64,000 nt of DNA, from NCBI GenBank assembly GCA_938083505.1, contig CALKCF010000007.1, positions 118,715-182,714 of the forward strand, given 5' to 3'. Under the pieces are notes generated by a model, which saw only the letters and a list, made by a program, of their open reading frames with translations, did not search any database and had not been told where the DNA came from. Positions 14,833 through 63,796 of the stretch are shown here, piece after piece. Position 1 is the stretch's first letter; each line of letters begins with the position of its first letter. Made by a program: the position numbers and the translations under genes. This DNA comes from an uncultured archaeon. Lineage in GTDB: Archaea > Thermoproteota > Nitrososphaeria_A > Caldarchaeales > Wolframiiraptoraceae.

Positions 14833-14899
14833 TGTCCTGCTATTATGGGTTTTGACCTAAATATATTAATATTCTAGTGCTGAAGTTAACGCAATTAGG

Positions 14900-46284: not shown

Positions 46285-46299
46285 TGGACCGGGCGGTAT
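46285..46299 (+). repeat. att-like direct repeat copy 1 (TGGACCGGGCGGTAT)
   Basis: Identical to 58623-58637; reverse complement resembles a tRNA-Ala 3' end. Confidence 0.85.
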
Positions 46300-46311
46300 G
46301 CAATTAAATAA

Positions 46312-46325
46312 TTAAGCGAATCCTT
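46312..46325 (+). repeat. Left inverted repeat (TTAAGCGAATCCTT)
   Basis: Exact reverse complement of 58600-58613. Confidence 0.85.
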
Positions 46326-46326
46326 T

Positions 46327-46900
46327 TTAGAGTTTTCTTATTTTTCCTGTTTGTGGTTGGTATATTTGGCCTTGTTGTGTTAGGCGCCATATGGCTGTTT
46401 CAACAGCCGCCTTTTCCGGGCTCTCCTCTTCATAAGCCCGTTGGACAACTTCTTCTATTGTTATTGTTTTATTTTGGAGGTTTTCCATGAGCCATTTCAT
46501 GGCTTGGCTTTAAGCCTTTAGTCTGTATTGTTTGGGTTTCCAAAGCTCTTTTCTGGGCGGGCTAGCTACCTCTGCTTGAATCGTTTGGGCGCTTACTGTT
46601 GTAGCCTGCGTTGTTTGCGGCTAGTAGTCCATTAGGGTTATGGTTGGCACGGCTTTCTCTTTCAAGAGTTCTGGCAGCTTCCTGTTTAGGCTGGCTTATT
46701 ATTCGCTTCATTTTTCTTGCTCTTGAAATGCTTGACCAGTAGAAAGCCTCGTCAACCGTGTCTTCGGCTATTAGGATTGTTACTTTTCCTGCCACGCGTC
46801 TTCCTGTTATGCCCCTGCGTTGTATGTAGCGTATCTCGCTTGGAACAGGCTCATAAAAGACTACGTGGTCAACTTCAGGAATGTCTAAGCCTTCCCCGTC
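46327..46900 (-). pseudogene. C-terminal fragment of Hef/FANCM-like helicase ending in a wHTH
   Basis: EGLDIPEVD.V.FYEPVPSEIR.IQRRG.TGR (motifs V/VI); frameshifted tail ..AIWRLTQQGQIYQP..GKIRKL. Confidence 0.75.
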
Positions 46901-47042
46901 CCCCGTAGCATTTGCCACAGAGCAGTTGAAGATTCAACAAGTCATCCGCATACAAGTGGAGATTCTCGGTGGAACCACAATTTTGACATTTACCGCCTAA
47001 CTTTTCCATTAGAAGCTGACAGACTCGCCTACTCACACGCAT
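46875..47042 (-). pseudogene. Degenerate HNH endonuclease remnant
   Basis: Hand translation ..LGGKCQNCGSTENLHL..NLQLLCGKCY; central HH segment deleted. Confidence 0.6.
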
Positions 47043-47437
47043 TAATGATCACTTCCTGTTAACGGTTTTTAACGGATAACGGGGGGAGGGGTACAGATGT
47101 AAAAATTTTCGATCTATTTAAAAGTATCCTTTAACATGCCAACATTGAAAAATCCGTACAATCCGTTACTTTTTTAAAAGAAGCCCAAAAAACTTCTTTC
47201 CTCACATTTCGCAACTCCGAATTTATCGAACTTTTTGTTTACACCGCAAATTCTACGAGAACATCGCAAGACTTAATAAACAAGGACAGACGAAAATCCG
47301 TTAACAACCGTAACATACGTAACACTAAGACTTAAGAAATAAGATTAAAAGGCATCGGCCATTCAATAACGCTCATTTAGCTTTCACGTATGTTAAATAT
47401 TTGTTCCGGTTTAAAACGTTATGCCGGCTGTTTCAAA

Positions 47438-48640
47438 CTATTGAATCACCTTTTTAATGACGTCAAACCGTTTAGGGTCTCCCTGTAGCACCCCAATCAT
47501 AATAACTAAAAAGTTCAAGAAGGTAGTTATCTTTGTTGCAATCGCCGCCAATAATCCGTGCTTCCACCCCATCACTTTCCCTATACTCCAAAACCTAAGC
47601 GCATACCATGAAGCCACAGATGCTAAACCAATAACGGATTGCTCCCAGGTGAGGTGTAAGAGTCCAACTAATGAAAGAAGAAGCCCCAATTGGGAAAAAG
47701 GATAGAAAACGAACGCGCAGAAGTGGACGAAAATAAACCTTAATGCATGGTTTAGAGGCAACATTCTTTTTATGTAAACGATGTTGAAGTTGCCCCATAT
47801 CCACCTTCTTCTCTGTTTCACCGCGTCTTTGAAGGAAAGAGGTGGAGTTATCAAGACAGGCTTATCCGAGTTATAAACCTTAAAGCCTGCAACCTCTGCC
47901 TTATGAAGCCAGTACATGTCCTCATTGCCCATTACAGGAACGTTCTCCAAAGTTTTGCCGTTGATGGGTTTAAATTCGTAGTCTAAGGCTTGCTCCACAT
48001 ACTTGTAATATATTTGAGATTCGCCGTGTCCATACAAAACCCGTCCAACATTAGTGAAGAAGTTGCAAGTGTGCATGCAAGTGTAGGGTCGTTCATAGTC
48101 AAGCAGCAGCCCAAACTTTGAAGTTGTCCTAGGCTTAATTGTCCCGACAACAACGTCTGCATCTACGCTTAAAGCGTCAAGTATTAATTCTCGGCTAACC
48201 ACTGAGTCGTCGTCGCTTTGTATCACCATGTACTTGGATGGAAGCAAACCTTTTTCAGCCAGTTGCAGCCTATACCGACGCGCATACTCTAAAGCTCTAG
48301 CTTTCACGTGGGCGAAACATTTGAAAGCTTTCGGGACAACGACTACGCGGTCAGCGTTGTATCTTGTCGGGTTGTCTCCTTCTTCAATCACTACCCAACA
48401 CTGCAACGGCAGAGGCAAATCATATTTGCGAACCGTGTCAAAAATTTTGTTAACACATTCAGCGTTACCAACCGTTGGAATTTGGAGGATTATTAGGTCT
48501 GCTTTGTCGTTATGGGGGTTAAAACGCTTAAACTTCTTTGCGCTAACAGCTCCAATAACTGCTTCCGCCAGAAAGAATAATGGAGCAAACCATGAAGCAA
48601 GAATTAACCATTTAACTATTTCAAAAATGATGCTTAACAT
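47438..48640 (-). CDS. Membrane GT2 glycosyltransferase (egghead-like)
   Basis: KARALEY, DDDS, ED, QRRRW, flanking TM helices. Confidence 0.85.
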   Translation of the reverse strand: MLSIIFEIVKWLILASWFAPLFFLAEAVIGAVSAKKFKRFNPHNDKADLIILQIPTVGNAECVNKIFDTVRKYDLPLPLQCWVVIEEGDNPTRYNADRVVVVPKAFKCFAHVKARALEYARRYRLQLAEKGLLPSKYMVIQSDDDSVVSRELILDALSVDADVVVGTIKPRTTSKFGLLLDYERPYTCMHTCNFFTNVGRVLYGHGESQIYYKYVEQALDYEFKPINGKTLENVPVMGNEDMYWLHKAEVAGFKVYNSDKPVLITPPLSFKDAVKQRRRWIWGNFNIVYIKRMLPLNHALRFIFVHFCAFVFYPFSQLGLLLSLVGLLHLTWEQSVIGLASVASWYALRFWSIGKVMGWKHGLLAAIATKITTFLNFLVIMIGVLQGDPKRFDVIKKVIQ

Positions 48641-49370
48641 TTTCGTTAACCATCTCCGCCGCTTCTAGAATTTTAGGGTTCAAACCGTTTCGCCGAAAAT
48701 CATTAATCAAATGTTTAACGTCTTTCGGTAGGCATCTGCCTCCGTAAGGTTTTCCAAAGAATTTTGTTCCCCATTTGCCGCCTTCCCATTCACCTAAAAC
48801 CTTCGCTGGGTCACATGCCTGTGCAACAGTTTTAATGTCGGCTCCTATCTTTTTGCAAAGTAGGTAAAGCTCGTTCCAGAAGCTTATGCTCACAGCCCTA
48901 AGCGAGTTGGTTGAAAGTTTTATCAGCTCGCTTGTCGTCGGATCTGTGCGGTAAACTGTTGTGGTTAAAGGGGCGTAGAGCCTTTCAAGCTGTTCTCCGT
49001 GCTTATGGCAGCATTCACCTATAACAATTCTTGAAGGGTTCACCACATCCTTCAAGGTGTGTTTTTCTCTGAGGAACTCCGGGTTGTGGCAGATGTGGCG
49101 CTTATATTTCTCCATTAAAGTTTTAGTTGTCCCCACTGGAACTGTGCTTTTAATAACGTAAAGTCCTTGAACTTCAATTTCAATTAACGTTTGCAAAGCT
49201 TTCTCCACCTCATGTTCAGGAGTGCAGATGAAGGTTGCGTCCACCTCTTTTTCGATTTTGTTTTTACCTTTGAACGGGTCATAGATGAACGTTTGGTGTC
49301 CCAGCTTCCGCATTAGGTACGCTTGTGCGGAGCCAACTACGCCGTAGCCGACAATTTGAATTTTCATCAC
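48621..49370 (-). CDS. Short UDP-glucose/GDP-mannose dehydrogenase
   Basis: GYGVVG, KSTVPVGTT, NPEFLRE, SE.IK, GG.CLPKD; no C-terminal domain. Confidence 0.85.
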   Translation of the reverse strand: MMKIQIVGYGVVGSAQAYLMRKLGHQTFIYDPFKGKNKIEKEVDATFICTPEHEVEKALQTLIEIEVQGLYVIKSTVPVGTTKTLMEKYKRHICHNPEFLREKHTLKDVVNPSRIVIGECCHKHGEQLERLYAPLTTTVYRTDPTTSELIKLSTNSLRAVSISFWNELYLLCKKIGADIKTVAQACDPAKVLGEWEGGKWGTKFFGKPYGGRCLPKDVKHLINDFRRNGLNPKILEAAEMVNENVKHHF

Positions 49371-49463
49371 ACTTCACTGACATATATTGTATGCGAAAAG
49401 TTTTAATAGGCTTTTCGCTGTGGCAAAACTCCCCGCTACGCCCCTCAAACAAAAAGAGGAAGA

Positions 49464-49712
49464 TTATAGGCGTAGGCATTTAGGGTTAGTTCTAATGGCT
49501 CGCCAAAAGGCTGGGCTTTTAGAAGCCATGTTAATGTCCCTTAACTGTTCATGGGTAATCCTTAGAATAACCCAATTGCAAAAGTAGAAGTCTTCACTAT
49601 CGTAGGTTTCATGGCTCTCGCTGTCATGCCATTTCATTAGCATATTAAGTAAAGCCCTTGTGTAAGCCCATAGGATATAACCACAATTTCGACATTTAAC
49701 CACAAAAGGCAT
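49464..49712 (-). CDS. Small hypothetical protein with N-terminal CxxC
   Basis: VKCRNCG; SD-like GGGGTTGG upstream. Confidence 0.5.
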   Translation of the reverse strand: MPFVVKCRNCGYILWAYTRALLNMLMKWHDSESHETYDSEDFYFCNWVILRITHEQLRDINMASKSPAFWRAIRTNPKCLRL

Positions 49713-49952
49713 GGCTAACCAACCCCTTTTAATGTTTGGGTGTAGTGGTTTAGAGTGCCACTCGATAAGCCCTTATTCCTGTGCACACAGCTTGAATTGC
49801 ATATACTCCTTCCACATTTCATAAACGTAGCCTTCCTTGAATGTTAGGAGGTAGCCCCTAACCCATTCGCCCTTCGAAGAGGCTGCAAATTTGCCTCCTT
49901 TGCTGAACCTCTCCAAAAATTTCAACCTCGAATGGGTAGGGAGCCCTCTCCA

Positions 49953-50796
49953 CTAACCTACACCCTTAAAGATTTCTACAGCTTTTGGAATTGAAACCTT
50001 CTCTTCCTCTGTTATTCCGCGGTAGAACTGGACTGTTGTGTCAAAACCTCGAGTGCCTAGCCACATACTTGCTTACAAGGTCTAAGGGGACCCCTCTGTT
50101 TCTCAGGCTTGTAATTCGCGAATGCCTCAAGATATGGGGCCTTAAATCTCTGCCCCGGAATTCTATCCCGGCCCTCTTGCAGTCCATCTTAAAAGCCATT
50201 TCAACAGCTCTCGCAGTTATCTCGAAAAGCTTCTGTTTCCCGAGAATATTGTCGTATTTTAGCAGCATTTCCTTGATCCATGGCTCAAGCTTGTATGTAG
50301 CCTTCTCCTCCCTTTTCTTCTTCAAAATATTGAAAGTGATTGTGCCTTTTTCGAGGTCCAAATCTTTCCTTGTTAGGGCTAATACTTCGCCTAGACGGCG
50401 GGCGTAAGCGTAGCATAAAGCGTAGATAATCCTGCGGATCGGCGAAGGCGTGTTGGTGATAAGCCTCGCAGCTTCATCATCCGTTAAGAAGTCAACCTCT
50501 CCAACATTGCGGGGCGGAATCCTCTTCTTCAAAAGTTTAAGCTTCTTCTCATCCACGTCTAGCATCATGATTTCAAAGTAGCTGAGAACATCATAGGTGT
50601 AGACGCCCAATGTGCTGCTGCTTAAACCACGCTTCAGCAGCTCGTCAATCCAGAGGTTAAGCGACTCAAGGCCTGGCTGCAAACCATTCTTCTCGAGGAA
50701 ACTGTCGTATTGTTTTAGGACTACTTCTTTCCGCTGTAAACATGATTTGGGATAGAGATCCTTAGCTCTAAACTTGAAGGTTTTAATGTCAAGCAC
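49953..50796 (-). pseudogene. Tyrosine recombinase/integrase, frameshifted before the catalytic Tyr
   Basis: R..E, HILRHSR, VARH; removing one T of T4 (~50043-50046) restores HSRFDTTVQFYRG.. Confidence 0.85.
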
Positions 50797-50831
50797 AATT
50801 ATTAAAATTTAATAAAGGGAATATAAAAATT

Positions 50832-51041
50832 TCAGCCCATGAGTTTCGCCAATTCTTCCTTCAGAAGCTTTCGCTCTTCTTCTGTGAAGACCTTTCTGAT
50901 TTCCTCTCGGACCTCATCCTTAACCGAGTCGCCTTGAACCAGAATCTTTGTTAGAAGCTCTATGCATATGGTTTTCTTGCTGTCCTCTTTTATGACGGCG
51001 CATACTCTGCGGGCTGTTTCGCGGGCCATCAATTCAATCAC
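50832..51041 (-). CDS. Small helical Cys-pair protein (paralog of next ORF)
   Basis: LM..E....VC..C...L.KILV.G shared with 51038..51247. Confidence 0.65.
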   Translation of the reverse strand: MIELMARETARRVCAVIKEDSKKTICIELLTKILVQGDSVKDEVREEIRKVFTEEERKLLKEELAKLMG

Positions 51042-51247
51042 TCAACACCCAGCTCCCTCAACCTCTCCTTAACGGTTTTCCTGCAGTCTTCCGGAAGCTC
51101 GGCTAAGGCTTCAAAGCCTTTGCCTTCCACGAGGATTTTGTGGAGAACCGCTCTGCACTTAGCCTTGTTCGCTTCTCCAACGGCTTCACAGACGTCCTCA
51201 ACAATTTCCTTAGACATCAGAACCTTGATCCCCTCCTCGTCGTTCAC
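51038..51247 (-). CDS. Small helical Cys-pair protein
   Basis: Coupled 4-nt overlaps with neighbours, SD GGAGGTG. Confidence 0.65.
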   Translation of the reverse strand: MNDEEGIKVLMSKEIVEDVCEAVGEANKAKCRAVLHKILVEGKGFEALAELPEDCRKTVKERLRELGVE

Positions 51248-51641
51248 TCCAACACCTCCTTTAATATTTTTAATGCTTTACGCTTAAAAGCTTCCGGCGG
51301 AGTCAAATACTCCTCAAGCCTATCCATCTTCAACTTTTCAGCCCTAAGCAATGTTTCGCCTAGGACTGTTGCCTCGCTTCCACGCTTCATCCTTCTAGGA
51401 CTGTGTTCAGGGATTCAGCAAAGCGGGTGCAGAAAGCCTCAGGCTTCTTTTCAGCCTCCCTTATAACCCTGTCAAAGAGTTTAAGGTAAACGTCATCCAT
51501 GTTTTTTATGCTGGCATAATACATCAAGTCCGTAAGCCACCTGATGGCTTCGCTTGCACGATCCTTGGATAAGGCCTCGAGGATTTTTGCTGTGGCCTCT
51601 AACAAGACCTGCTTAGGCTCAGCTTCCAATACGTTCACCAA
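51244..51641 (-). CDS. Hypothetical helical protein: 84-aa + 48-aa coupled ORFs, or one frameshifted gene
   Basis: ORF 51387..51641 followed by ATGA-overlapping 51244..51390 (MKRGSEATV..KEVLE). Confidence 0.5.
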
Positions 51642-51686
51642 ACAAGAATGGTGGAAACAAAAATAAAAATGCGTCGAATATGGCTG

Positions 51687-52136
51687 TTAGGCGTTCTCTG
51701 CTCCGATAATGATTATGTCGAAACTGAAGCTTGTGATGCCGCCTATGTTTGAAGCAACTGAAAGTGTTAAATCTGCTGATACGCTATCTCCAGGATCTGA
51801 AACTTGGTCTTGGCGGTTCTAACTTAAAGTCAGATAGTTTGAAGCTGACGATGGATTCCAGTTGTCGACTTCCATGCTCAGCCTAATTGGAACATTGCCT
51901 TCATTCTTCACGTAGACCGTGAACTGTTTACTTGAGCCTGGCTCCAGAAAGCCCCAATCGATATACGATACTGGAATGGTGCAACCGCTGTCGGAGTAGA
52001 CGCCTACACCAACAGCCTTTATATTCCCAACGCTGGAAATTATCCGCTTGGCAACAAGGGCTCCCAACACTGTTGCAACTATACATACAAGGGCGATTGC
52101 CAAAACCGTTGCCAAAGCGATTCTATGCATCGCCAT
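51687..52136 (-). pseudogene. Secreted beta-sandwich surface protein with in-frame TAG
   Basis: Signal peptide, IDWG.LEPG, KNEGNVP; frame continues 43 codons past TAG at 51819-51821. Confidence 0.7.
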
Positions 52137-52409
52137 GTTCTTCACCAGCAAGAGCTTAGCAGAAAAAGAGGGGGAATGCACCAGGCGCCAGGCAAGTTGT
52201 CTACATGGCTTCAAAGGCTGCCTTCATGTTCGAGAAAAGCTTCTCAAACACGAGCTGGTAGACTACCTGATAACATCCAGGATAATTAAGCCTCTCGTCA
52301 ACCTCCTCAACATTTTAATAAAAGCCAGAGAAGCCGAAATCTACAAAGAAAAAGAGAAACTCGTAGAAATCTTCTCAAAAATCATTTAATCACTCTGACA
52401 AATCGTCCT

Positions 52410-52940
52410 TCATTTTAATTCTTGCTCAATAAGGTGCCAAGCGTCAAGAAACTCGGTGTAGTTTGTTAGTTCATTATCAATGCTAGCTGTTACTCTTTCA
52501 TCCCAAACGTTTGAACCTCCAAAATGGAAGCAGAAGGAGTATACTCCTCTCTTTCCTGGGTCTTTAACCGTCATTCTCTTCTCGAGTTCAGCGCTTGGAA
52601 CAATGAGGAATTTGTTTTCGAAACGACTTATCCTGTGTTCTCCAACAAGCGGCAGGTAGGTGATGAAGACATAAAAATCAACTTTGCCTCTGTTTTTAAG
52701 GAATTTTGCCCTCTTGATTTGATGCCAACTGTGTCCCACATGCCCGCTTTTCCATCTGCGACCAATGTAATAACGTGACTCTTTAACCTGGATTCCCACG
52801 TGCTTATCACCTTTAACAACCAGCAAATCTAAGCCAACATCACGCACAGGAAAATACACCTCACACTTCAGCCTTTTCATGATTTCCTCTGCAACTATGC
52901 ATTCACCAGGCTCTAAAGACCAAACGTTTCTAACAGGCAC
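52410..52940 (-). CDS. PD-(D/E)xK restriction-endonuclease-like protein
   Basis: GE..V..E, D.G.DL, IQVK.SR. Confidence 0.75.
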   Translation of the reverse strand: MPVRNVWSLEPGECIVAEEIMKRLKCEVYFPVRDVGLDLLVVKGDKHVGIQVKESRYYIGRRWKSGHVGHSWHQIKRAKFLKNRGKVDFYVFITYLPLVGEHRISRFENKFLIVPSAELEKRMTVKDPGKRGVYSFCFHFGGSNVWDERVTASIDNELTNYTEFLDAWHLIEQELK

Positions 52941-53176
52941 TTACACCACAAAAAACAAAGTGTTAAAGCATTATAAATAAATTCTATCGATACTTTCGGT
53001 TAGACGTTACTAACAGAACACATAGAAAAGCAAGCAATTTAAACATAAAATCGCAAAGCAAGCATGTTTTAGGCTTAGAATAGATGCTATGGGAAACGAT
53101 AGAAACCCTTCACAATTTTTATCCAATATTAATTTAATAAGGCAACATAAGGAGTATTGGAACCGTGCATAAACCT

Positions 53177-53899
53177 TCATGGTCGATACTTAGCTAACCA
53201 TGGGATAAGTTCCGCGAGTGTTTTTATGCGATTTCCGGTGAAATCAGGATATCTGTCTTCTCTGTCTATGAGCAGCGCCTCCATTCCAGTGTTAATGGCT
53301 CCTTCGTAATCATCTTTTGGATCATCCCCTACATAGATGCAGCTTCCGGTTTTAATGCCCATTAAAGAAGCTGCATGTTCGAAGATTCTGCGGTCTGGCT
53401 TCTTTATTCCGAACTCTACAGAAGTAACTATAACTTCAAACGAGTTGTTAAGGCCTGCTTTGGCTAAATTCTGGTAGACTAGGCTCGGATAATGGGTGTT
53501 GCTTATCAGTCCCAGCCTATGACTTTTCGAAAGCTGTTTAATAACTCTTGTGCTTTCATCAAAAGGCTTGACACCTCGATTCCATTCCCATAAAAATGTC
53601 TCCGCCAGCAGCTTTACAAAGCTAGAAGTAGGAGGTTTAGACGGGAAATTTTCCCTCAAGAAATTTTTGACAAAATCGAAAAAATGAAACTCTACGCAAT
53701 CAACATAGGATTCCGCCTCCATCCGACTTAAGCAGTCTTCCCAACTCCGCTTGAAAACCTCAAGTTCAACTTCATAACCGTATTTTTTGAGGAGTCGCCA
53801 GGTCCGTTTACCCCCATCCACAAATAGGGATTCAGGGACACTTAGCAATGTTCCAAATAAATCAAAGATGAGCACTTTTTTCATGTTCTCCACTTCCAT
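53177..53899 (-). CDS. HAD-IA family hydrolase
   Basis: FDLFGTL, ISN, KPD, VGD....D. Confidence 0.9.
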   Translation of the reverse strand: MEVENMKKVLIFDLFGTLLSVPESLFVDGGKRTWRLLKKYGYEVELEVFKRSWEDCLSRMEAESYVDCVEFHFFDFVKNFLRENFPSKPPTSSFVKLLAETFLWEWNRGVKPFDESTRVIKQLSKSHRLGLISNTHYPSLVYQNLAKAGLNNSFEVIVTSVEFGIKKPDRRIFEHAASLMGIKTGSCIYVGDDPKDDYEGAINTGMEALLIDREDRYPDFTGNRIKTLAELIPWLAKYRP

Positions 53900-54025
53900 A
53901 TATTATTGTTAGGAAACTTACACTAGGAAAATAAACTTAACGAATAACAGCAGCCTCGATTTATAGACTTTCTATGAGGATTTTGTAGTTGTTAAAGGAA
54001 GGAAACTAAATATGAGTGAAAGTCA

Positions 54026-54541
54026 TCATGGGTTTAGGTGTTGAGTTTGCGAGAGTTTTGGCAAGGGGATGGCTGGAACTGAAAGGATCTCCCCCTTAGC
54101 CATTATGTATTCGAACCCTCCCCCCACCTCCTCAACCCAAAAGCCGAGGGCTACTGCCGGCTTAAGCTTCTTCGCCTCCCTCATGCTTTTCCATACTGTA
54201 ATTGAAGTGTCAAACTCGATTTTGCCAGCCCTGTTAGGCAGCTGTGGAAGGTGTTCCGCCAACTTTCTAGCTAGCTCATTAACGCTTTCGGCTGTAAGTC
54301 CAACGGTTGCTAGAGGCGCAACCCTCTCAATTATCCGCCTAATCACAACTTCTGGTATTCTAAACTCCCTGACAAGCTCCCCAATTCTTTCGGGCGGGAC
54401 GGCTGGCGCGGCTGGAGCGCCAATCCTCTCGGATATTGCCTGCAAAAGCTTTAACTGCTGCTCCTCAACCCTAAGAAGCAAAACGATTAGCTCGTCCACC
54501 CTTGTGAGAACGTCTAAAAGCCTTTGAATGGGGATCTCCAT
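54026..54541 (-). CDS. Hypothetical coiled-coil/Pro-Ala protein, probably 3'-truncated
   Basis: Last gene of the co-oriented cluster. Confidence 0.55.
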   Translation of the reverse strand: MEIPIQRLLDVLTRVDELIVLLLRVEEQQLKLLQAISERIGAPAAPAVPPERIGELVREFRIPEVVIRRIIERVAPLATVGLTAESVNELARKLAEHLPQLPNRAGKIEFDTSITVWKSMREAKKLKPAVALGFWVEEVGGGFEYIMAKGEILSVPAIPLPKLSQTQHLNP

Positions 54542-54567
54542 TGCAACCTTTCCGCTAGTTCAAGTTT

Positions 54568-54906
54568 TTACAGGTTGTAGGCTTGCAGCATAACTGAAAT
54601 AGTGTTTGCGCTGGCTACTGCCTTGATGTTTTGGCCAGGATTCATGGTGAAAAGGGGCGAATCCACAGACCTGTAAACGTCTAAAGTGGCATAGGCGTCT
54701 AAAGTTATGGGTGGAAGTGTCCTCTCAACCGTTGCTTCCCGTTCAATTGTAAGCGTCAGCGTGTTTGCAGTCGCCGCGTTGTTATGTATCAGCATACCAT
54801 AGACTTTTCGTGCAAACTTGTTAGGCGGAACCGTATTGTTTGTCAATGGAACCTTGCTTGTTCCGACTTCCGCTTCCATTTCGAAAGTGTCTTCGGGCTT
54901 GGCCAA
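54568..54906 (-). CDS. Hypothetical beta-rich protein (putative virion component)
   Basis: Alternating beta-strand pattern, 2-nt gap to the upstream gene. Confidence 0.6.
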   Translation of the reverse strand: MAKPEDTFEMEAEVGTSKVPLTNNTVPPNKFARKVYGMLIHNNAATANTLTLTIEREATVERTLPPITLDAYATLDVYRSVDSPLFTMNPGQNIKAVASANTISVMLQAYNL

Positions 54907-54908
54907 AC

Positions 54909-55628
54909 CTAGCTTCCTCCTGCTAAAACTCTCTCTATTGTGGCTTTGTCAACCTCTGTTGGGGGAGCCCATTCCTCTGGCACTGTCCACGTGAAGTGTC
55001 TGAGTCCTCCAACGGTTAGGAACCTGCATGGTGGCTTCTGCCTCAGCATTCCCTCGATCACGTTTCTGTTTGTTATTTGTATGGTGTCGTAGCCTGCTCC
55101 AAGAATGCGCATGCTTGGCCTTATGGGTCTTCCAGAGTCGTTCTTAAGCCCAATTTCTATGCTTAGCTTATGGTATAGAACGCATTCAGTAGCCACTGTG
55201 GGATTGTCATAGGGGCTCAGCCATCCCGGAATGTAATCGCGTTTGTCTCCAACTTTTGGAGGCTCAACCTTGTAGCCCCAGCCTGTCTGTGGCGTGCCCG
55301 CTGGAATACTCCTGTAAAGCCATATCTCGCTTGGTCTAATGCCAAATGCGAAATGCAGTATCCTGAAGGGCCTCTCCTCCCACACGGCCAGTATGTCAGG
55401 CTCCTCTCCCAGGGCTGTTTCTCCCATGATTTTGAAGTCAACTGTTTCTCCCTCGGGAATTTCCGGAAGCTCGCCGTCATAGGTTCTGTGAAGGGGATAT
55501 CTTCGCATGACACGGAAAAAGTAGAGGGCGAATACAGGCTCTTTAGCCACAGCCTTTGGAAGAATAATAGCCAAGTTCATGTTCTCGTCAAAGATAGACT
55601 CAACTATAGGCTTATTCAACTCAACCAT
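54909..55628 (-). CDS. Hypothetical beta-rich protein (candidate jelly-roll capsid protein)
   Basis: 239 aa, SD GGAGG, no TM; fold is inference only. Confidence 0.55.
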   Translation of the reverse strand: MVELNKPIVESIFDENMNLAIILPKAVAKEPVFALYFFRVMRRYPLHRTYDGELPEIPEGETVDFKIMGETALGEEPDILAVWEERPFRILHFAFGIRPSEIWLYRSIPAGTPQTGWGYKVEPPKVGDKRDYIPGWLSPYDNPTVATECVLYHKLSIEIGLKNDSGRPIRPSMRILGAGYDTIQITNRNVIEGMLRQKPPCRFLTVGGLRHFTWTVPEEWAPPTEVDKATIERVLAGGS

Positions 55629-55697
55629 ACAGTTTTTAACCTCCGTTCAGAAAAACTTCGGGAGTTCATTGTTTTGTTCAGCTCCCTGCAAGGGAAA

Positions 55698-55871
55698 CTA
55701 GCCCTTCTCAGAAGTGGTGGTCACGGTCACTGTTACTGGCGCGAAATCGTAGGCGGCTGTATCGGCTTCTCCGGCTGTAACTCCCCCATGCGTATGCGAT
55801 GGCAGGTCAACAGTAACCGTTACTGAATGTTTATGTTGCCTGTGCCCTGCAAGGTATCCGGGTTTTGGCAT
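55698..55871 (-). CDS. 57-aa HxH-motif spike/needle-like protein (missed by ORF track)
   Basis: MPKPGYLAGHRQHKHSVTVTVDLPSHTHGGVTAGEADTAAYDFAPVTVTVTTTSEKG; SD AGGAGG. Confidence 0.7.
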   Translation of the reverse strand: MPKPGYLAGHRQHKHSVTVTVDLPSHTHGGVTAGEADTAAYDFAPVTVTVTTTSEKG

Positions 55872-55883
55872 TTATTCAGCCTC

Positions 55884-56582
55884 CTATGCGCCTGGTCTGG
55901 CTAGTGCTGGCACATCTTTGCCGTAGCCTATCCATACGCCAACCGGAAACGCGTAGGTTGTAACAGTAGCGCCTGCGGTTTTCGACTCAACCTTTCCATC
56001 AATGTCTAACGTTGCATCGGCGATAACTGGGTGTGGAAACTCGAAAACCTGCATATCCGTAGCCTTCATGATAAGGGTGGCTTCAATGGGGTACTGTGGA
56101 ACTCCATCCACATCCACAACTTGAACAGCCGTCAAGGGAGCTGTGGGGCTAAGCTCTATTATGTCCGTGATGATGAAGATCTGCTTTGCCGGAATCGTTA
56201 GTTTGCCGGCTGTTGGGGGAATAATGTTGAAGGTTCCAACGTATTTCCCAGCGGCAAGCGTTATATCCCTTTCATACGTGAAGTTTTCGCCTATGTGTTC
56301 TGGTCGGAGCTGCATCAAAACAATGTCGTCGCTCTTAGCATATTGAAGCGGCATAATGTTACGCTTCTCCTTCTCCTTAAACTCGGCTAAGACCTGGCAG
56401 ACAAGCTCAAGGTTCCTCGTCAAACCCGGAACCTCAAAAGTTCTCTCCGAAATATTCAACGTCCTAATCTTCGCCAACTCATGCTTCACAATGTCGTATT
56501 CCGTCCCAAAAGGCTCAACCTTGCGGCTGAGAACAGACTTGGCATCTATCTCGAGCAACCTCTTTAACTCTTCAATTTCCAT
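55884..56582 (-). CDS. Hypothetical protein, helical N-terminus + beta-rich C-terminus (candidate capsid protein)
   Basis: 232 aa, first gene after an AT-rich promoter-like gap; fold is inference only. Confidence 0.55.
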   Translation of the reverse strand: MEIEELKRLLEIDAKSVLSRKVEPFGTEYDIVKHELAKIRTLNISERTFEVPGLTRNLELVCQVLAEFKEKEKRNIMPLQYAKSDDIVLMQLRPEHIGENFTYERDITLAAGKYVGTFNIIPPTAGKLTIPAKQIFIITDIIELSPTAPLTAVQVVDVDGVPQYPIEATLIMKATDMQVFEFPHPVIADATLDIDGKVESKTAGATVTTYAFPVGVWIGYGKDVPALARPGA

Positions 56583-56654
56583 ACAACCAACTCCATTTAA
56601 CAGCTGGAAAAGAATATTAAAATGATGGTATCAGTAAGTATTGGTTAGACTAAA

Positions 56655-56816
56655 ATGGCTGAGGAGCTGGTTTTCACGGCTCAGGTTCAAAAGATCTACA
56701 GAATAGCCATACCGAGAACAATTTATAAGGCGTTGGATATTAAGCCCGGAGACTATGTTGAGGTTAGAGTAAAGAAGGTCAGCATCAAGCCTAAGGGATA
56801 CCCGCTAACTCGCTGA
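56655..56816 (+). CDS. AbrB/MazE/SpoVT family DNA-binding protein (missed by ORF track)
   Basis: MAEELVFTAQVQKIYRIAIPRTIYKALDIKPGDYVEVRVKK.. Confidence 0.85.
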   Translation: MAEELVFTAQVQKIYRIAIPRTIYKALDIKPGDYVEVRVKKVSIKPKGYPLTR

Positions 56817-56839
56817 AACTTAAATTTCTAGCTTTGACA

Positions 56840-57172
56840 TCAGCGGCTCATTACGTAGCCTGTCTTCGGCTTCTCCTTTTCAGCCCCTGAAAGCTGATAC
56901 TCGGCTTTTCTCTCTACGCTGGGCAGGATATCCTCCAGCTTAGGGAGGGTTGGGAGTTTACCGAGAACCTCAGGCAGCTTAGGCGCCCTTGGAACAACAG
57001 CCTCAGGAGCCTTTCCAGCCTCTAAGGAAGTTTGAAGTTTCAAGAGGGTTGACTGCGGACCTGGAGGCAGCTCCACCTTCAAGGCTTCTTTAACCAAGCT
57101 TTCAAACTGGCTTTCAGGCGCTGCCAAAAGCTGCGTGAAGGATGATATTTTGGGAAGCTCCTGCGGAGGCAT
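56840..57172 (-). CDS. Pro/Leu-rich hypothetical protein
   Basis: Abuts the upstream stop; repeated LP.L motifs. Confidence 0.6.
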   Translation of the reverse strand: MPPQELPKISSFTQLLAAPESQFESLVKEALKVELPPGPQSTLLKLQTSLEAGKAPEAVVPRAPKLPEVLGKLPTLPKLEDILPSVERKAEYQLSGAEKEKPKTGYVMSR

Positions 57173-57424
57173 CTACTTCTTCACTGCCTTTGTAGGCACG
57201 TCGAGGGCTTGGGCTATACCCTCGCCTATGTTTTCAATGGCAGTTCCAATACTCTTTGCAATGCTGTCAGCCACCCTGTGGGGACCAGCAGAGCCCAACG
57301 GCCCCTTATCTATAGCTGAAGACACAGATTCGGACAGCTCCTTTGGAACACGTACTAGGCTGTCTAAAACGTCGTCCGCAACCCTATGTGGAGGCTTAGC
57401 CGTTAAATCGGGGAGTTCGGGCAT
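57173..57424 (-). CDS. Hypothetical protein with internal PHRVAD repeat
   Basis: PPHRVADDVLDSL / GPHRVADSIAKSI. Confidence 0.6.
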   Translation of the reverse strand: MPELPDLTAKPPHRVADDVLDSLVRVPKELSESVSSAIDKGPLGSAGPHRVADSIAKSIGTAIENIGEGIAQALDVPTKAVKK

Positions 57425-57436
57425 TCAACCACCAAA

Positions 57437-57772
57437 TCAATAATAAACGTTCATATTTTTAATTTTTTCTATTCCGTAAAAACCTTTAATGCAGCTAAAA
57501 ACTGAGGGCAGCCACTTATTCTCCTTAACGAAGCGCTCGTACTCTTCAGGCTTCATCAAACGCTTAAGCTCGGCGTAAGCCATATCCGACGCCACGTCGC
57601 CGGCGAATGGTATGACGTCTGCGAGGTCGTCCATCAAAGCGTAGCGGAGAACCTCCCTCTGCCTATCATCAAGCTTTGGCATGGGTTTCGGAGGAAAATC
57701 TGGGAGCTCAACGCTTGGGAGCTCAACCTCTAAAAGCGGAATTTTAAACTTTTCCAAAATTTTTATGGGCAT
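57437..57772 (-). CDS. Hypothetical protein (possible late frameshift in a T5 run)
   Basis: Pro-rich N-terminus, D.IPF.GD motif; alternative end PSVLAALKVFTE*. Confidence 0.55.
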   Translation of the reverse strand: MPIKILEKFKIPLLEVELPSVELPDFPPKPMPKLDDRQREVLRYALMDDLADVIPFAGDVASDMAYAELKRLMKPEEYERFVKENKWLPSVFSCIKGFYGIEKIKNMNVYY

Positions 57773-57785
57773 ACTGCAAGCCTAC

Positions 57786-58538
57786 TTATTGAAGCTTAGA
57801 CCACGTTAAAAGCCCGTAGCCTTTATCGGCAGATTTCTCTCCGAAGCGAGCCATCCTAGCCTTAACATCTTCAATATTGCTGAGTATGCCCCTGTCTATG
57901 GCTAAAGCCGCAAGCCCTGAGCAATGGGGTGTAGCCATCGACGTGCCAATCATCAAGTCGAAGCCGTCTGGAACCAAGTCGTAGAAGGCGTCGTACCATA
58001 GGCTCACCGCAGCTACGATTTGGCTTTCTCTGTCTCCGCCTATGCCGGCTACATCTGGCTTCAAGAAGTTTCCCCCGTATTTTTGGTAGTCCCTGTCATA
58101 GGCGTCCTTGTTATCCCTGTACCATCTTGCTTGCGGCCCACGCGATGAATAGCTTGACGTTTCCATTGTCTTCCAGTCTACGGCAGCCACACATAAAACG
58201 TATGGGCTGGCTCCCGGGCTGTTTATGCTCCATTCCTCGCCGTCGTTTCCAGCCGCGACTATGAAGTTTGTGCCATACTGCCTGTAAAGCTTCTCAGCCA
58301 AAACACATTCGGGATCCTCTTCAACGCTTCCCTCCAATGGACCGCCGAGACTCATGTTCACAACCTTACAGCCTTTCACTGCGCACATCTCCATAGCCTT
58401 CATGATCTGGAAGCTTGAGCATGGACCAAATGCGGTGAACACTTTAACATGGTAGCTGGATGGAGCCAAAGCCACGGGAATGAAGGTTCCATACCGTGAG
58501 AGGCATGGTTGACCGAAGGCGCATGAATGGGCCCAGCT
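57786..58538 (-). pseudogene. Subtilisin-like S8 peptidase, C-terminal extein (5' part deleted)
   Basis: VNMSLGG, AAGN, SSRGP, KPDV, GTSMATPH; catalytic Asp/His region absent. Confidence 0.85.
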
Positions 58539-58607
58539 ATTATGAACTATGAAACCGCTGGCCGAATAGTTGCCATATGTTGTATCCGCTAAATCGTAGA
58601 AGGATTC
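58539..58607 (-). other. Intein C-terminal splicing region (blocks F/G)
   Basis: In frame with the peptidase: ESFYDLADTTYGNYSASGFIVHN|S. Confidence 0.8.
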
Positions 58608-58613
58608 GCTTAA
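58600..58613 (-). repeat. Right inverted repeat
   Basis: AAGGATTCGCTTAA = reverse complement of 46312-46325. Confidence 0.85.
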
Positions 58614-58622
58614 AAAATTAAG

Positions 58623-58637
58623 TGGACCGGGCGGTAT
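58623..58637 (+). repeat. att-like direct repeat copy 2
   Basis: TGGACCGGGCGGTAT identical to 46285-46299. Confidence 0.85.
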
Positions 58638-58837
58638 CTACACTTAATTGGGTGCGAGTCCACATTGTACGGAGTAATTTGAAAGGATTCAGGGAATGCG
58701 GTCGAAAAAGCGAGGGTCTAGGCTTCTCCATATAGCTGAAGGAAGCAAATGAAAAGACTGCTCGAGGTGCTGACGAAAATTTTTATCATCCACCGAATGC
58801 CATCATCGGTGAAGCGTTAGGGAGGGAATAAGGGGAG

Positions 58838-61800: not shown

Positions 61801-62071
61801 AGGTCTTTCCAACCCTGAATATGTGATGTCCTTAGATTATGATAAAGATGGGATAATAGATGAGAAAAAGGTACCAAATGTGACAGAGGGGACTCTTCCT
61901 TCAGAAACGGTTGGACCATTTTTACTTTTGGAATGCTTTTATGTCTTTTTGACAATCGCTACAATAATCATTGCAGCTTTTTTAATACTAAAATTTAGAA
62001 AGAAGACTAAGATCAAGTCTGATAAAAACCGAGTAAATGAATTTAAATTCATCCTTTTAAGGACTTACTAA
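58838..62071 (+). CDS. Membrane-anchored surface protein: TolB-like propeller, Ig-like domains, zinc metallopeptidase
   Basis: Signal peptide; WSPDG/WSPDS repeats; HEYGH...EGWA; DYDKDG; C-terminal TM + basic tail. Confidence 0.75.
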   Translation: MRKLLSLGIIFLLLTSILANFVPALPIEAQQQSYGWKDEFNYRGLDEVQEIKLVNDRQFTFDGGDDFYPLWSPDGSKLLFLRAVPSLEEWNASLWISDLKGKLIGPMMGTVLTDVGWSPDSTKIAYSSLKVRYSVRYSWNYFWDELHIFDTSTSEDKVILTTGKNETISYRLLAPTRSLDWLPRGGGIVFTHFSMFRPQLPFFAKSQINIISEDGKYLKTLVERDVRTDLSIISDLFVSSSGDIIGFSEIRFSELPLQPYSESINRLWLMNVDGSNQQLILELPSHPGLFSPIKSISFLDESKILIERWNIRLLEEPPGRMDFEKFEIGIIDISTKKFTSLLTFSLETVPFSFIGISRKQPSFNNKFLYANITTTGDYSVEYSIWLFDVKDHTKKVLLSKPFKREWLEKWSFLVLLFLFHGVSVSPTGERIAYLYPDGEGEHMKIWVAEVEGLAPKVTRLNVEVVDPSPPDGARRSPPITFRARVTSDGQPVRDAFVTFYMGDGGTSYIGQSNIRTDANGYAEVRDWDPKWDHEVTFRWWAEAWKEGYESGISEKRSLIYVPASKLDITDIASGPFGVIIFKVKNQATKTVKINSYEIYVNDKKTGWNDNVSEELPKGEEYLFVTPFSFSSLTEVTKVKVIVNYNGKDSWLEESWSERDVEERLLKARDYLKNLGVRDIPEDIPKISYPANVKQPYYDYGTDTIYVPVNYTQSDFVILHEYGHFIEDKWYLFNMPDDWEGDCQRIGKKNAMKEGWAHFLASLARNSPKILEAQPVGINMDFEDPFSNTIFCAHTMDKRQENEACVVSVAGIFWDLYDPANEEFDQLQISPEELVSLIKESMKWNSEGFKTFYINFNAKYRGTDLPEKLDKLLLEGYGISYINLKTEFLVASLHSPANLHAYDSEGKHVGVNERGEIEIEIPNSYYTGPDAEPEEIIIFGQSEGITFKIEGIAEGNFSLLIEQKKDNYIKRVEYRNIFITNSTYAIVEIGLSNPEYVMSLDYDKDGIIDEKKVPNVTEGTLPSETVGPFLLLECFYVFLTIATIIIAAFLILKFRKKTKIKSDKNRVNEFKFILLRTY

Positions 62072-62681: not shown

Positions 62682-62940
62682 AAACTCATCTAATTAAAAA
62701 TTACTTTAAAATTATAAAAATAGTGATGACTCCCTATATCCATTTGTTTGATGCATTCCTTAATTGAGGCATATTATATCCTATTGTGATCAAAATTAGT
62801 TTACCACGCTCTCAACATTCAAAACAATAAAATTCTAGTTAAATCGAATATGACTGCCTTACCAAGAAATGTTTTAAAGTATGTGATAGCTCATGAAATG
62901 ATACTGTCCGGAATTTCTTAGTGAAAGACAAACTATTATC

Positions 62941-63624: not shown

Positions 63625-63796
63625 CTGTAAAAGAAAAATTCCGGTGCAGGAGCTAGAGTTTATTCTAGATGGCTTAATCTGGGATCAAAAGGAGCAGAGA
63701 GTAAAGTTCCCATTTCCTGAGAAAAGGATGAAAGATATAATACGTTGTTTTCGTTGCCCTTTTTGTAAAGCTGAAATTCCAGTTGAGAAAGAATAA
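63596..63796 (+). CDS. Zinc-ribbon protein inside IS6
   Basis: CPSC...CPFC; ends 12 nt before the right TIR. Confidence 0.6.
   Translation: MKQESLECPSCKRKIPVQELEFILDGLIWDQKEQRVKFPFPEKRMKDIIRCFRCPFCKAEIPVEKE

What the first reader, a model, noticed from the sequence alone, without database searches (positions are those of the whole stretch)
46285..58637. 12.35-kb element with exact ends: 15-bp direct repeat plus inner inverted repeat
Seen: TGGACCGGGCGGTAT at 46285 and 58623; TTAAGCGAATCCTT at 46312 and inverted at 58600 (19/22 when extended to 46304-46325 vs 58600-58621). An excised circle would read IR-core-IR, a symmetric attP. The core's reverse complement (ATACCGCCCGGTCCA) resembles an archaeal tRNA-Ala 3' end and matches 12/15 to the tRNA-Ala at 11868. 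Inference: a tyrosine-integrase, tRNA-targeting element.
Basis: partly seen in the sequence, partly recalled or inferred. Interest (0 to 1): 0.8.

Follow-up and report, generated by a model that had tools for sequence, protein, structure and literature searches.

The report
Decayed tRNA-Ala integrative element remnant
The 12.35-kb block is the worn-down, rearranged remnant of a large mobile element that inserts into alanine-tRNA genes of hot-spring archaea. Its ends are genuine attachment sites, but it has lost its own integrase, so it is an ordinary kind of element in a little-studied host.

Summary
TGGACCGGGCGGTAT occurs only at 46285 and 58623 in the 1.15-Mb genome, each copy with an inward-facing TTAAGCGAATCC box.

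- A distantly related MAG (G076, 'Ca. Bathyarchaeota' DGJ8_bin_44_34) has a 56-kb island in an intact tRNA-Ala(GGC). Its two junctions carry the same arms and core, and its internal modules are 92-97% identical in DNA to ours.
- A metagenome contig (FMJZ01023877.1) carries the predicted joined form, IR-core-IR, followed by an integrase gene.
- That att-adjacent gene belongs to a large ~435-aa tyrosine-recombinase family with no Pfam match. Its members sit behind tRNA genes with the same arm.

This copy is a fossil:
- The 435-aa integrase is deleted; the arm is fused to an intein fragment of a subtilase gene.
- The only recombinase inside (XerA-like, 280 aa in relatives) has a +1 T frameshift before its catalytic Tyr.
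- Other genes are truncated, and one 4.5-kb module is inverted.
- Neither repeat copy touches a tRNA.

The right junction looks like a hybrid with a second, related element. That element's integrase end follows tRNA-Ala(CGC) on another contig, which implies a tandem array (inferred). A first-reader note of this scan on the same window (e1-5641429) proposed the same neighbour.

Verdict: a new member of a known kind, of moderate interest.

The parts
46285..46299 (-). Core copy 1, of attR type (P arm, then core, then outside flank). It carries the element-type 'ATA' version of the tRNA-Ala 3' end.
   Evidence: It is identical to G076 attR GCATACCGCCCGGTCCA.
46300..46325 (.). P arm. It contains the inverted-repeat box TTAAGCGAATCC (46312-46323), 12 nt from the core.
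   Evidence: The 32 nt including the core are identical to G076 attR. Window 46285-46335 (core plus 36 nt of the P side) is 100% identical to the FMJZ01023877.1 attP.
46327..46918 (-). Broken 3' remnant of a helicase gene: a 57-aa wHTH ORF plus a 118-aa Helicase_C fragment.
   Evidence: Pfam Helicase_C. It is 81% identical in DNA over 616 nt to the 392-aa helicase fragment beside the P arm in Ga0071330_1070579.
47438..49370 (-). Cargo genes: a GT2 glycosyltransferase (47438-48640) and a UDP-glucose dehydrogenase-like gene lacking the C-terminal domain (48621-49370).
   Evidence: Pfam. No counterpart in the G076 island.
49407..52256 (-). Recombinase module. The XerA-like tyrosine recombinase gene (50041-50796) is frameshifted by one extra T; the rest of the reading frame, with the catalytic Tyr, runs on to about 49950. 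Small upstream ORFs are included.
   Evidence: 92-96% DNA identity to G076 C4 26080-29235. Full-length homologues are 280 aa. TTT has become TTTT.
52410..53899 (-). A 176-aa ORF of unknown family and a HAD hydrolase (53177-53899).
   Evidence: Pfam. No counterpart in the G076 island.
54079..58607 (-). A 4.5-kb module of small ORFs plus the C-extein of an S8 subtilase (57786-58475) and the last 69 nt of its intein (58539-58607). Its orientation is inverted relative to the recombinase module when compared with G076, L045 and L040.
   Evidence: 94.6-96.3% DNA identity to G076 C4 36851-41421, inverted. Pfam Peptidase_S8. Homology to L045 stops at 58607, inside the intein.
58600..58622 (.). P' arm with the inverted-repeat box (58600-58613), 9 nt from the core.
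   Evidence: Identical to the 23 nt that follow tRNA-Ala(GGC) in G076 and to the FMJZ attP.
58623..58637 (-). Core copy 2, also the 'ATA' version. It lies in a hybrid junction: P' arm of this element, core, then P-type arm of the neighbouring element.
58638..58661 (.). P0 arm (CTACACTTAATTGGGTGCGAGTCC), the P-type end of a second, related element, E0.
   Evidence: It forms an inverted-repeat pair with the arm after tRNA-Ala(CGC) on C1, with the same 3-nt register offset as the arm pairs of E, G076 and Ga0071330.
58838..64000 (+). Presumed body of E0 up to the contig end: a 1077-aa PD40/Ig-like protein and an IS240-type DDE transposase (62941-63624).
   Evidence: Not found in 40 relatives. Pfam. 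GC content 30-39%.
11868..11959 (+). tRNA-Ala(UGC) followed directly by a solitary P'-like arm, TTTTTTAAGTGAATCC. This is context, not part of the 12.35-kb block.
   Evidence: The trailer is not shared by any relative.

Best explanation
The block 46285-58637 is an integrated but decayed and non-autonomous member of a family of large integrative elements of hot-spring Thermoproteota.

How the family works. The free form carries this attP, in order:
- the P arm, with a TTAAGYGARTCC box;
- a 12-nt spacer;
- a 15-nt mimic of the tRNA-Ala 3' end, ATACCGCCCGGTCCA;
- a 9-nt spacer;
- the P' arm, with the same box inverted;
- a TATA-like stretch;
- the gene of a ~435-aa tyrosine recombinase.

The recombinase exchanges strands within the 12 nt (CCGCCCGGTCCA) that attP shares with the tRNA-Ala genes. 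The tRNA stays intact. attL is tRNA, then P', then integrase gene. attR is P, then the 'ATA' core, then host flank. Because attR keeps a usable core, further elements can pile up in tandem.

What happened in this genome. The copy kept both arms and both cores, but:
- A deletion fused P' to an intein fragment of a subtilase gene and removed the 435-aa integrase.
- The accessory XerA-like recombinase has a +1 T frameshift.
- The helicase, subtilase and UDP-glucose dehydrogenase genes are truncated.
- One 4.5-kb module is inverted.

The right-hand core is a hybrid junction with a second related element, E0. E0's other end (arm plus an intact 443-aa integrase) follows tRNA-Ala(CGC) on contig C1.

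Shown: the sequences, the homologies and the gene damage.
Inferred: catalysis by the 435-aa enzyme, the crossover region, the role of the boxes as integrase-binding sites, and the join between contigs C1 and C7.
For: Repeats. The direct repeat and the inverted repeat are real and unique in the genome.

Integrated relative. In G076 an intact tRNA-Ala(GGC) is followed by CTTAATTTTTTAAGCGAATCCTT. About 56 kb away lies ...CTTAATTATTTAATTGC-ATACCGCCCGGTCCA. These are the same two arms as ours.

Shared modules. The internal modules are 92-97% identical in DNA. The hosts' thermosomes are only 64% identical in protein, against 95% within the genus. That difference points to recent transfer.

Joined form. 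A P-core-P' junction followed by the integrase start is present in FMJZ01023877.1. It is 100% identical to both of our arms.

The 435-aa protein:
- It has more than 2500 relatives, many named 'site-specific integrase'.
- It hits NCBIfam XerA_Arch at E = 1e-8.
- R148, K193, R270, H297 and Y305 are invariant in the alignment.
- The top 50 listed fold matches (27 with E <= 0.001) are all tyrosine recombinases, with XerA 4a8e first at E = 2e-7.
- Three further family members sit directly after a tRNA 3' end and the same arm.

Decay of this copy:
- There is no homologue of the 435-aa integrase in the block.
- The frameshift in the XerA-like gene is confirmed.
- Gene fragments are present.
- The breakpoint at 58607 lies in intein-coding sequence.

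Sporadic distribution. Neither recombinase was found in the order's other genomes, apart from fragments of the 435-aa integrase in G006.

Tandem neighbour:
- The P0/P0' arm pair has the same 3-nt register offset as the other arm pairs.
- A 443-aa integrase, 60% identical to G076's, lies right after tRNA-Ala(CGC) on C1.
- The right ends of C1 and C7 are both unconnected.
Against: - Neither core copy is attached to a tRNA. The proposed tRNA end is on another contig, and the join is not shown.
- The left flank (46284 down to 43167) is itself absent from genus relatives, whose synteny resumes at 43166. The variable region is therefore larger than the block bounded by the repeats.
- Parts of the interior (46919-49406 and 52388-54078) have no counterpart in the G076 island, and the P-side remnant resembles a different relative (Ga0071330). 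The block may never have moved as one 12.35-kb unit.
- Some contigs carry a solitary P-core-P' junction in a chromosomal setting, with no tRNA or integrase within 10 kb. A joined junction alone does not prove a free circle.
- No reads could be examined for excision products.
Confidence: 0.78

Rival explanations
1. The block is not one former element. It is a composite left when two or more tandem elements of the family lost their middle parts, including an internal core, by deletion or recombination. On this reading the P end and the P' end come from different parents, and the 12.35-kb unit never integrated as such.
For: The P-side remnant (helicase fragment) matches Ga0071330-type DNA at 81%, while the interior matches G076 at 92-97%. 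Two stretches have no counterpart in G076. One module is inverted and fused to P'. A second integrase fragment on C1 (105824-106006) shows accretion at these loci. Module exchange among tandem archaeal elements is described in PMC8371274.
Against: Mosaic make-up is usual for single mobile elements. Both arms are 100% identical to one and the same attP contig (FMJZ01023877.1), which fits a single parent for both ends.
Confidence: 0.15
2. The block is an intact, self-mobile integrative element that uses the 251-aa recombinase at 50041-50796 as its integrase.
For: A Phage_integrase domain lies inside a unit bounded by direct repeats.
Against: The catalytic Tyr is out of frame. Homologues of this recombinase have no tRNA or arm motif within 10 kb. 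The att-adjacent integrase of the family is a different, 435-aa protein that is missing here.
Confidence: 0.03
3. The block is a DDE-type transposon with terminal inverted repeats and a 15-bp target-site duplication.
For: It has the geometry of a direct repeat plus an inverted repeat.
Against: The inverted repeats lie 12 and 9 nt inside the direct repeat, not at the termini. There is no transposase in the block. In G076 the 'duplication' is the 3' end of a tRNA-Ala gene.
Confidence: 0.01
4. The linkage is an assembly or binning artefact: foreign element DNA was wrongly joined to this genome at short shared sequences.
For: The assembly is a short-read metagenome assembly (141-nt end overlaps). 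The element is 96% identical to DNA of a distant MAG.
Against: The shared att sequence (about 64 nt) is shorter than the 141-nt overlaps. The block lies on a 182-kb contig with genus-typical genes up to 45458. A second family member with its own tRNA-Ala junction lies on C1 beside conserved ABC-transporter genes.
Confidence: 0.03

Closest known systems
Non-partitioning (pNOB8-type) tyrosine-integrase elements of archaea that insert into tRNA genes, and the 'cryptic integrated elements' catalogued in Thaumarchaeota (PMC8371274, PMC6563490)
   Same: A tyrosine recombinase gene sits beside the att site and stays whole after integration. The att core equals a tRNA 3' end. Direct repeats flank the island. 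The papers also describe tandem arrays, integrase loss after integration, and mosaic cargo with replication, partition and defence genes.
   Different: The integrase family (~435 aa, no Pfam match, an extra C-terminal region of about 100 aa) is not among the characterised ones. It was not found in the phage or plasmid records or in IMG/VR contigs. The conserved pair of inverted boxes around the core has not been described in the papers I read. Whether the family equals 'fam30-08' of PMC8371274 was not tested.
SSV-type 'suicidal' integrase elements (Fuselloviridae; the pTN3, pT26-2 and TKV elements of Thermococcales)
   Same: They target tRNA genes and are archaeal. The literature describes tandem or paired copies that promote chromosomal inversions (PMC7253208, PMC8371274). 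The flanks of the tRNA-Ala genes in this genus look shuffled in the same way.
   Different: In SSV-type elements attP lies inside the integrase ORF, which is split on integration. Here the integrase ORF starts about 50-60 nt after the core and is intact in the integrated state.
XerA/dif chromosome-dimer resolution
   Same: The 280-aa recombinase inside the block is closest to archaeal XerA (PDB 4a8e, E = 3e-25; NCBIfam XerA_Arch 82.8 bits).
   Different: Its score is far below the equivalog cut-off of 220 bits. It was not found in 75 other genomes of the order. It lies in plasmid-like contexts with ParA and TFIIB-like genes. There is no 28-bp dif-like site. It is more likely an element-borne resolvase or invertase.

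Membership tests
tRNA-targeting integrative element with a tyrosine integrase | Direct repeats that equal the 3' end of a tRNA gene, one copy inside the tRNA | tested here: inconclusive
   The repeats are tRNA-Ala-like (13 of 15 to tRNA-Ala(CGC)), but neither copy is in a tRNA. In the relative G076 one copy is inside an intact tRNA-Ala(GGC).
tRNA-targeting integrative element with a tyrosine integrase | An integrase gene inside the element, next to an att site, with the catalytic R-K-H/Y-R-H-Y residues | tested here: not met
   This copy has no 435-aa integrase, and its XerA-like recombinase has the Tyr out of frame. The feature is met in G076, in G000 contig C1 and in L073 and L079-L081.
tRNA-targeting integrative element with a tyrosine integrase | The joined attP form (arm-core-arm) exists | tested here: met
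   FMJZ01023877.1 carries P-core-P' followed by the integrase start, and it is 100% identical to both arms.
tRNA-targeting integrative element with a tyrosine integrase | Sporadic presence; missing from close relatives | tested here: met
   The core was not found in 75 genomes of the order, nor was the 280-aa recombinase. The 435-aa integrase was found only in G000 and, as fragments, in G006.
tRNA-targeting integrative element with a tyrosine integrase | Excision or circular forms in this organism | not testable with these tools
SSV-type (self-partitioning) integrase element | attP inside the integrase ORF, so that the gene is split into int(N) and int(C) at the two ends | tested here: not met
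   There are no integrase fragments at the ends. In relatives the integrase is whole and begins after the core.
XerA/dif system | A housekeeping single-copy recombinase conserved across relatives and scoring above the equivalog cut-off | tested here: not met
   82.8 bits against a cut-off of 220. No match at E <= 1e-20 in the 75 other genomes of the order.
DDE transposon (terminal inverted repeats plus target-site duplication) | A transposase gene and inverted repeats that abut the duplication | tested here: not met
   No transposase lies within 46285-58637. The inverted repeats are 9 and 12 nt inside the direct repeat.

The most novel reading that the evidence does not exclude
The remnant is not dead. 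With both arms and cores intact (100% identical to a natural attP), it would behave as a hitchhiker that the intact 443-aa integrase of the neighbouring element moves in trans. The same integrase family, whose cores fit all three tRNA-Ala genes, would then be the agent that has repeatedly swapped and inverted the chromosome segments between tRNA-Ala genes in this genus.
Probability: 0.2. Interest if true: 0.55.

Novelty: new member of a known kind. Interest (0 to 1): 0.4.

Why it matters
Mobile elements of hot-spring Caldarchaeales and Bathyarchaeia-type archaea are barely described. This locus and its relatives contribute four things:
- They define the attachment site (two inverted boxes around a mimic of the tRNA 3' end).
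- They identify the likely cognate enzyme, a large ~435-aa tyrosine-recombinase family that Pfam does not recognise.
- They show near-identical modules (92-97% DNA identity) in hosts whose thermosomes are only 64% identical, which points to recent long-range transfer.
- They flag the tRNA-Ala genes as points where chromosome order has changed within the genus.

For annotation, several ORFs in the block are fragments and should not be read as working host genes.

Tried and rejected
- PHROGs on nine unknown ORFs of the block gave nothing. Only the recombinase matched.
- A language-model atlas search of the 239-aa ORF gave only weak leads. I did not pursue the 'virion module' idea noted elsewhere in this scan.
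- Viral-contig scans for the attP and the arm patterns found 0 matches. The 435-aa integrase profile found no relative in IMG/VR, and a tblastn search with the G076 435-aa protein found none in the phage or plasmid records.
- A profile-profile comparison of the two recombinase families was not significant: probability 1.4%, on shallow alignments. The recombinase call for the 435-aa protein rests on NCBIfam, the motifs and the fold.
- The record behind L040 could not be reached beyond 10-kb flanks.
- An exact-protein look-up of a gene near the contig end found no bridging contig. One look-up failed.
- I tested whether the left flank is the native downstream flank of tRNA-Ala(CGC). It is not. 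In G003 and G004 that tRNA is followed by the homologue of window 14094-15192, which led to the inversion model instead.
- I looked for a tRNA body beside either repeat copy and found none.
- I looked for an ORF restored by deleting the block and found nothing convincing.
Full report
**Observation**

The 15-mer TGGACCGGGCGGTAT is present at 46285-46299 and 58623-58637. It is found nowhere else in the window, even with two mismatches, and no shuffle of 100 gave two copies. The whole assembly is 1.15 Mb in 10 contigs. The window is C7:118715-182714, so the window end is also the contig end. In that assembly these are the only exact copies. The neighbouring bases differ, so the repeat is exactly 15 bp.

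TTAAGCGAATCCTT lies 12 nt inside the left copy, and its reverse complement lies 9 nt inside the right copy. The extended arms match at 19 of 22 positions. The 12-mer TTAAGYGAATCC has only four exact sites in the genome: these two, one 4 nt behind the tRNA-Ala(UGC) gene of the window (11946), and one inside a gene on C3, which is about what chance would give.

The reverse complement of the core, ATACCGCCCGGTCCA, reads as T-stem, then the acceptor strand CCGGTCC, then A73 of a tRNA-Ala. It matches the UGC gene at 12 of 15 positions and the CGC gene on C1 at 13 of 15, with the last 12 contiguous.

All three tRNA-Ala genes (UGC on C7; CGC and an intron-bearing GGC on C1) are intact elsewhere. ARAGORN and Rfam find no tRNA body next to either repeat copy.

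**What lies between the repeats**

Almost all ORFs are on the minus strand. Pfam gives the following:
- a Helicase_C fragment (46562-46918);
- a GT2 glycosyltransferase;
- a UDP-glucose dehydrogenase-like gene without its C-terminal domain;
- a Phage_integrase-domain protein of 251 aa (50041-50796);
- a HAD hydrolase;
- a run of small ORFs without family;
- a 229-aa piece of an S8 subtilase at the right end.

The recombinase stops at ...ARHSRF. The next frame continues FDTTVQFYRGITEEEK.... Full-length relatives are 280 aa and read ...ARHSRFDTTVQFY... through the catalytic Tyr. A DNA alignment with the closest relative shows one extra T, AGGTTTGAC having become AGGTTTTGAC.

This recombinase is XerA-like (PDB 4a8e, E = 3e-25; NCBIfam XerA_Arch 82.8 bits against a cut-off of 220). 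It is not housekeeping: no other of the 75 genomes of the order has a match at E <= 1e-20. Its close homologues lie among ParA, TFIIB-like, ligase, methylase and helicase genes.

**The decisive relative**

A scan of species-representative genomes with the recombinase profile found contig JAGTQI010000001.1 of the MAG 'Candidatus Bathyarchaeota archaeon DGJ8_bin_44_34', here G076:C4, 71 kb. The 12-mer CCGCCCGGTCCA occurs twice on that contig, 56 kb apart and on the same strand.
- One copy is the 3' end of an intact tRNA-Ala(GGC). It is followed by CTTAATTTTTTAAGCGAATCCTT, which is exactly the sequence that follows our right-hand core when read on the minus strand.
- The other copy reads ...GGACTCACTTAATTATTTAATTGC-ATACCGCCCGGTCCA-host. 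Its 32 nt up to and including the core are identical to our left end read on the minus strand.

Our two ends are therefore the attL-type (P') and attR-type (P) arms of the same element family. The tRNA copy in G076 carries the tRNA's own bases (AATCC...), whereas the distal copy carries 'GCATA...'. That is the pattern expected if strand exchange occurs within the shared 12 nt.

Inside the island, G076 26080-29235 matches window 49407-52256 at 92-96% identity. G076 36851-41421 matches window 58607-54079 at 94.6-96.3%, but in inverted orientation.

The two hosts are not close. Their thermosomes are 64% identical in protein, compared with 95% within the genus and 80% within the order. The element DNA has therefore moved recently between distant lineages.

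**The joined site exists**

A scan of metagenome contigs for core plus the start of P' returned four contigs.

FMJZ01023877.1 reads AAGGATTCGCTTAATTATTTAATTGC-ATACCGCCCGGTCCA-CTTAATTTTTTAAGCGAATCCTT. This is P-core-P', 100% identical to both of our arms. It is followed by a TATA-like stretch and the start of a gene that is 90% identical in DNA to the gene next to P' in G076.

Two long contigs (Ga0207433_10000584 and Ga0071330_1070579) carry a variant P-core-P'. In Ga0071330_1070579, where the flanks were read, it sits between a 392-aa helicase fragment (81% DNA identity to window 46285-46895) and methyltransferase genes, among clearly chromosomal genes (S27e, eIF2-alpha, primase, dCTP deaminase). 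No tRNA or integrase lies within 10 kb. These look like old junction scars. They show that a joined site alone does not prove a free circle.

**The cognate integrase**

The gene next to P' in G076 (435 aa) has no Pfam match, but several results identify it as a tyrosine recombinase:
- It hits NCBIfam XerA_Arch at E = 1e-8.
- It has more than 2500 relatives of about 435 aa, many labelled 'site-specific integrase' in Bathyarchaeia and Nitrososphaerales MAGs.
- Box-I Arg (R148), K193, YxxR270, H297 and Y305 are invariant.
- The predicted fold (pLDDT 77) matches tyrosine recombinases in all 50 listed hits, 27 of them at E <= 0.001. XerA 4a8e is first at E = 2e-7, followed by IntI4, Cre, XerH and lambda Int.

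Three other members picked from long contigs each begin about 50-60 nt after a tRNA 3' end (only two of the three tRNAs were called by ARAGORN), and the tRNAs are of a different type (ends ...GGGCCCG or ...GGGCCCA). Each is separated from the tRNA end by the same arm: CTTAATTTTTTAAGTGAATCC, CTTAATTTTCTAAGTGAATCC or CCTCCATTTTTAAGCGAATACC. The box therefore travels with the integrase, not with the tRNA.

In every element where both ends are known, the P box is the inverted copy of the P' box and sits 3 nt further from the core. I infer that the boxes are integrase-binding sites, possibly overlapping the integrase promoter. This is not shown.

The 280-aa recombinase has no tRNA or box within 10 kb in five loci. 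It is probably an accessory resolvase or invertase.

The 435-aa family was not found in the phage or plasmid records or in IMG/VR contigs. I therefore call the elements cryptic integrative, plasmid-like elements. The G076 island also carries an AEP primase, ParA/ParB-like genes, a helicase, a ligase, type I restriction genes and metabolic cargo.

**State of this copy**

No trace of the 435-aa integrase lies in the block. Homology to G076 and L045 on the right side runs up to 58607, and the counterpart position there is inside the intein of the S8 subtilase gene. Our copy thus keeps only the last 69 nt of the intein and the C-extein, fused to the P' arm. The region that normally follows P', with the integrase, is gone.

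Taken together:
- The helicase next to the P arm is reduced to two broken pieces.
- The XerA-like gene is frameshifted.
- The 4.5-kb subtilase module is inverted relative to three relatives.
- Two stretches (46919-49406 and 52388-54078) have no counterpart in G076.

The small ORFs of the 54079-58607 module are intact and 91-99% identical in protein to those of G076. The block is therefore a non-autonomous, rearranged remnant, or possibly a composite of more than one parent. It is bounded by authentic att sites.

**The right-hand junction and a second element**

Both cores carry the element-type 'ATA'. To the right of the right core the plus strand reads CTACACTTAATTGGGTGCGAGTCC. This is a P-type arm (compare GCAATTAAATAATTAAGCGAATCC after the left core), so the right junction is P'(this element)-core-P0(another element).

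On contig C1, tRNA-Ala(CGC) (101672-101744) is followed by three features:
- CTCCTAATTGAGTGCGAATAC, which pairs with P0 as an inverted repeat with the same 3-nt offset;
- an uninterrupted 443-aa integrase, 60% identical to G076's, with all catalytic residues;
- a second C-terminal integrase fragment, about 3 kb further on.

The right ends of C1 and C7 are among the ends without a 141-nt overlap to another contig end. An IS240-type transposase lies near the C7 end.

The simplest reading is a tandem array: tRNA-Ala(CGC), then E0, then this element, then the flank. I put this at about 60%.

**Wider context**

In all six genus relatives the conserved sequence stops exactly at the 3' end of tRNA-Ala(UGC) and of tRNA-Ala(CGC). 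What follows differs between genomes:
- G003 and G004 have tRNA-Ala(CGC) followed by the homologue of window 14094-15192.
- G005 and G006 have tRNA-Ala(UGC) followed by the homologue of window 43166 to 41748, in reverse.
- G001 and G002 have tRNA-Ala(UGC) followed by what in G000 follows tRNA-Ala(GGC).

In G000 the 34-kb stretch 11942-46284 lies between tRNA-Ala(UGC) (followed by a solitary P'-like arm) and the inverted core at 46285. An inversion between convergent tRNA-Ala/att sites would produce this layout, and it independently predicts the C1-C7 join.

Such tRNA- or element-mediated rearrangements and tandem arrays are known in other archaea (PMC8371274, PMC6563490). Relatives' synteny resumes at 43166, not at 46284, so about 3.1 kb to the left of the block is also variable DNA of unknown origin.

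**Verdict**

This particular copy is a fossil without its integrase.

It is a new member of a known kind: a tRNA-targeting archaeal integrative element with a non-partitioning tyrosine integrase.

It has some points of interest:
- an uncharacterised, widespread integrase family with a conserved pair of boxes around the core;
- recent transfer between distant hosts;
- tRNA-Ala genes as rearrangement points.

According to unchecked notes of this scan, the host is Ca. Terraquivivens. I did not verify the name.

Noticed in passing
window 11942-46284 (with G000 C1:82534-82624 and C1:101672-101744): The three tRNA-Ala genes are synteny breakpoints within the genus. Their downstream flanks are exchanged between genomes, and in G000 a 34-kb stretch lies between tRNA-Ala(UGC) and an inverted att core, as if inverted between two tRNA-Ala/att sites.
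   Followed up: partly
window 11942-11959: A solitary P'-like arm (TTTTTTAAGTGAATCC) directly follows tRNA-Ala(UGC). No integrase remnant follows it. The next gene is a 673-aa ORF with no family match.
   Followed up: partly
G000 C1:101745-108538 (L014:3746-10539): A second family member sits at tRNA-Ala(CGC). It has an intact 443-aa integrase, then AdoHcyase-like, cupin, PadR and GGACT genes, and a second 61-aa C-terminal integrase fragment at C1:105824-106006.
   Followed up: partly
window 62941-63624: An IS240-type (IS6-like) DDE transposase gene lies about 400 nt from the contig end. It may explain the assembly break.
   Followed up: no
L065/L068 (G002:C2:60519 and 64882-64924): In relative G002 the last 43 nt of tRNA-Ala(CGC) are repeated 4.4 kb downstream and followed by CTCCTAATTAAGTGCGAAACC. 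This points to a small integrated element, or to the start of a further one.
   Followed up: no
L084, L085 (G006:C31:36113-36601; G006:C1:134733-134954): Degraded fragments of the 435-aa integrase (one with six stops) lie directly behind tRNA-Ala-like 3' ends in relative G006.
   Followed up: no
L075 10990-11065 (Ga0071330_1070579): A solitary P-core-P' junction sits in a chromosomal setting, beside a 392-aa helicase fragment. No tRNA or integrase lies within 10 kb. It looks like an old junction scar whose origin is unexplained.
   Followed up: partly
L045 1315-2469 versus L040 394/395: The S8 subtilase gene of G076/L045 has a 1155-nt intein-like insert at a site where the L040 homologue is continuous, although L040's product also has intein Pfam hits elsewhere. 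This suggests intein presence/absence, or different insertion sites, within one gene family.
   Followed up: no
window 45687-45848 (-): A 53-aa HTH-like ORF lies in the variable left flank. It is 70-74% identical in DNA to stretches in three genomes of another family of the order.
   Followed up: no
G000 C3:218660-219121: This is the only other Phage_integrase-domain gene of the genome (403-aa open frame). It lies next to tRNA-Arg(TCT). If it is an element integrase, no canonical XerA was detected in this genome.
   Followed up: no
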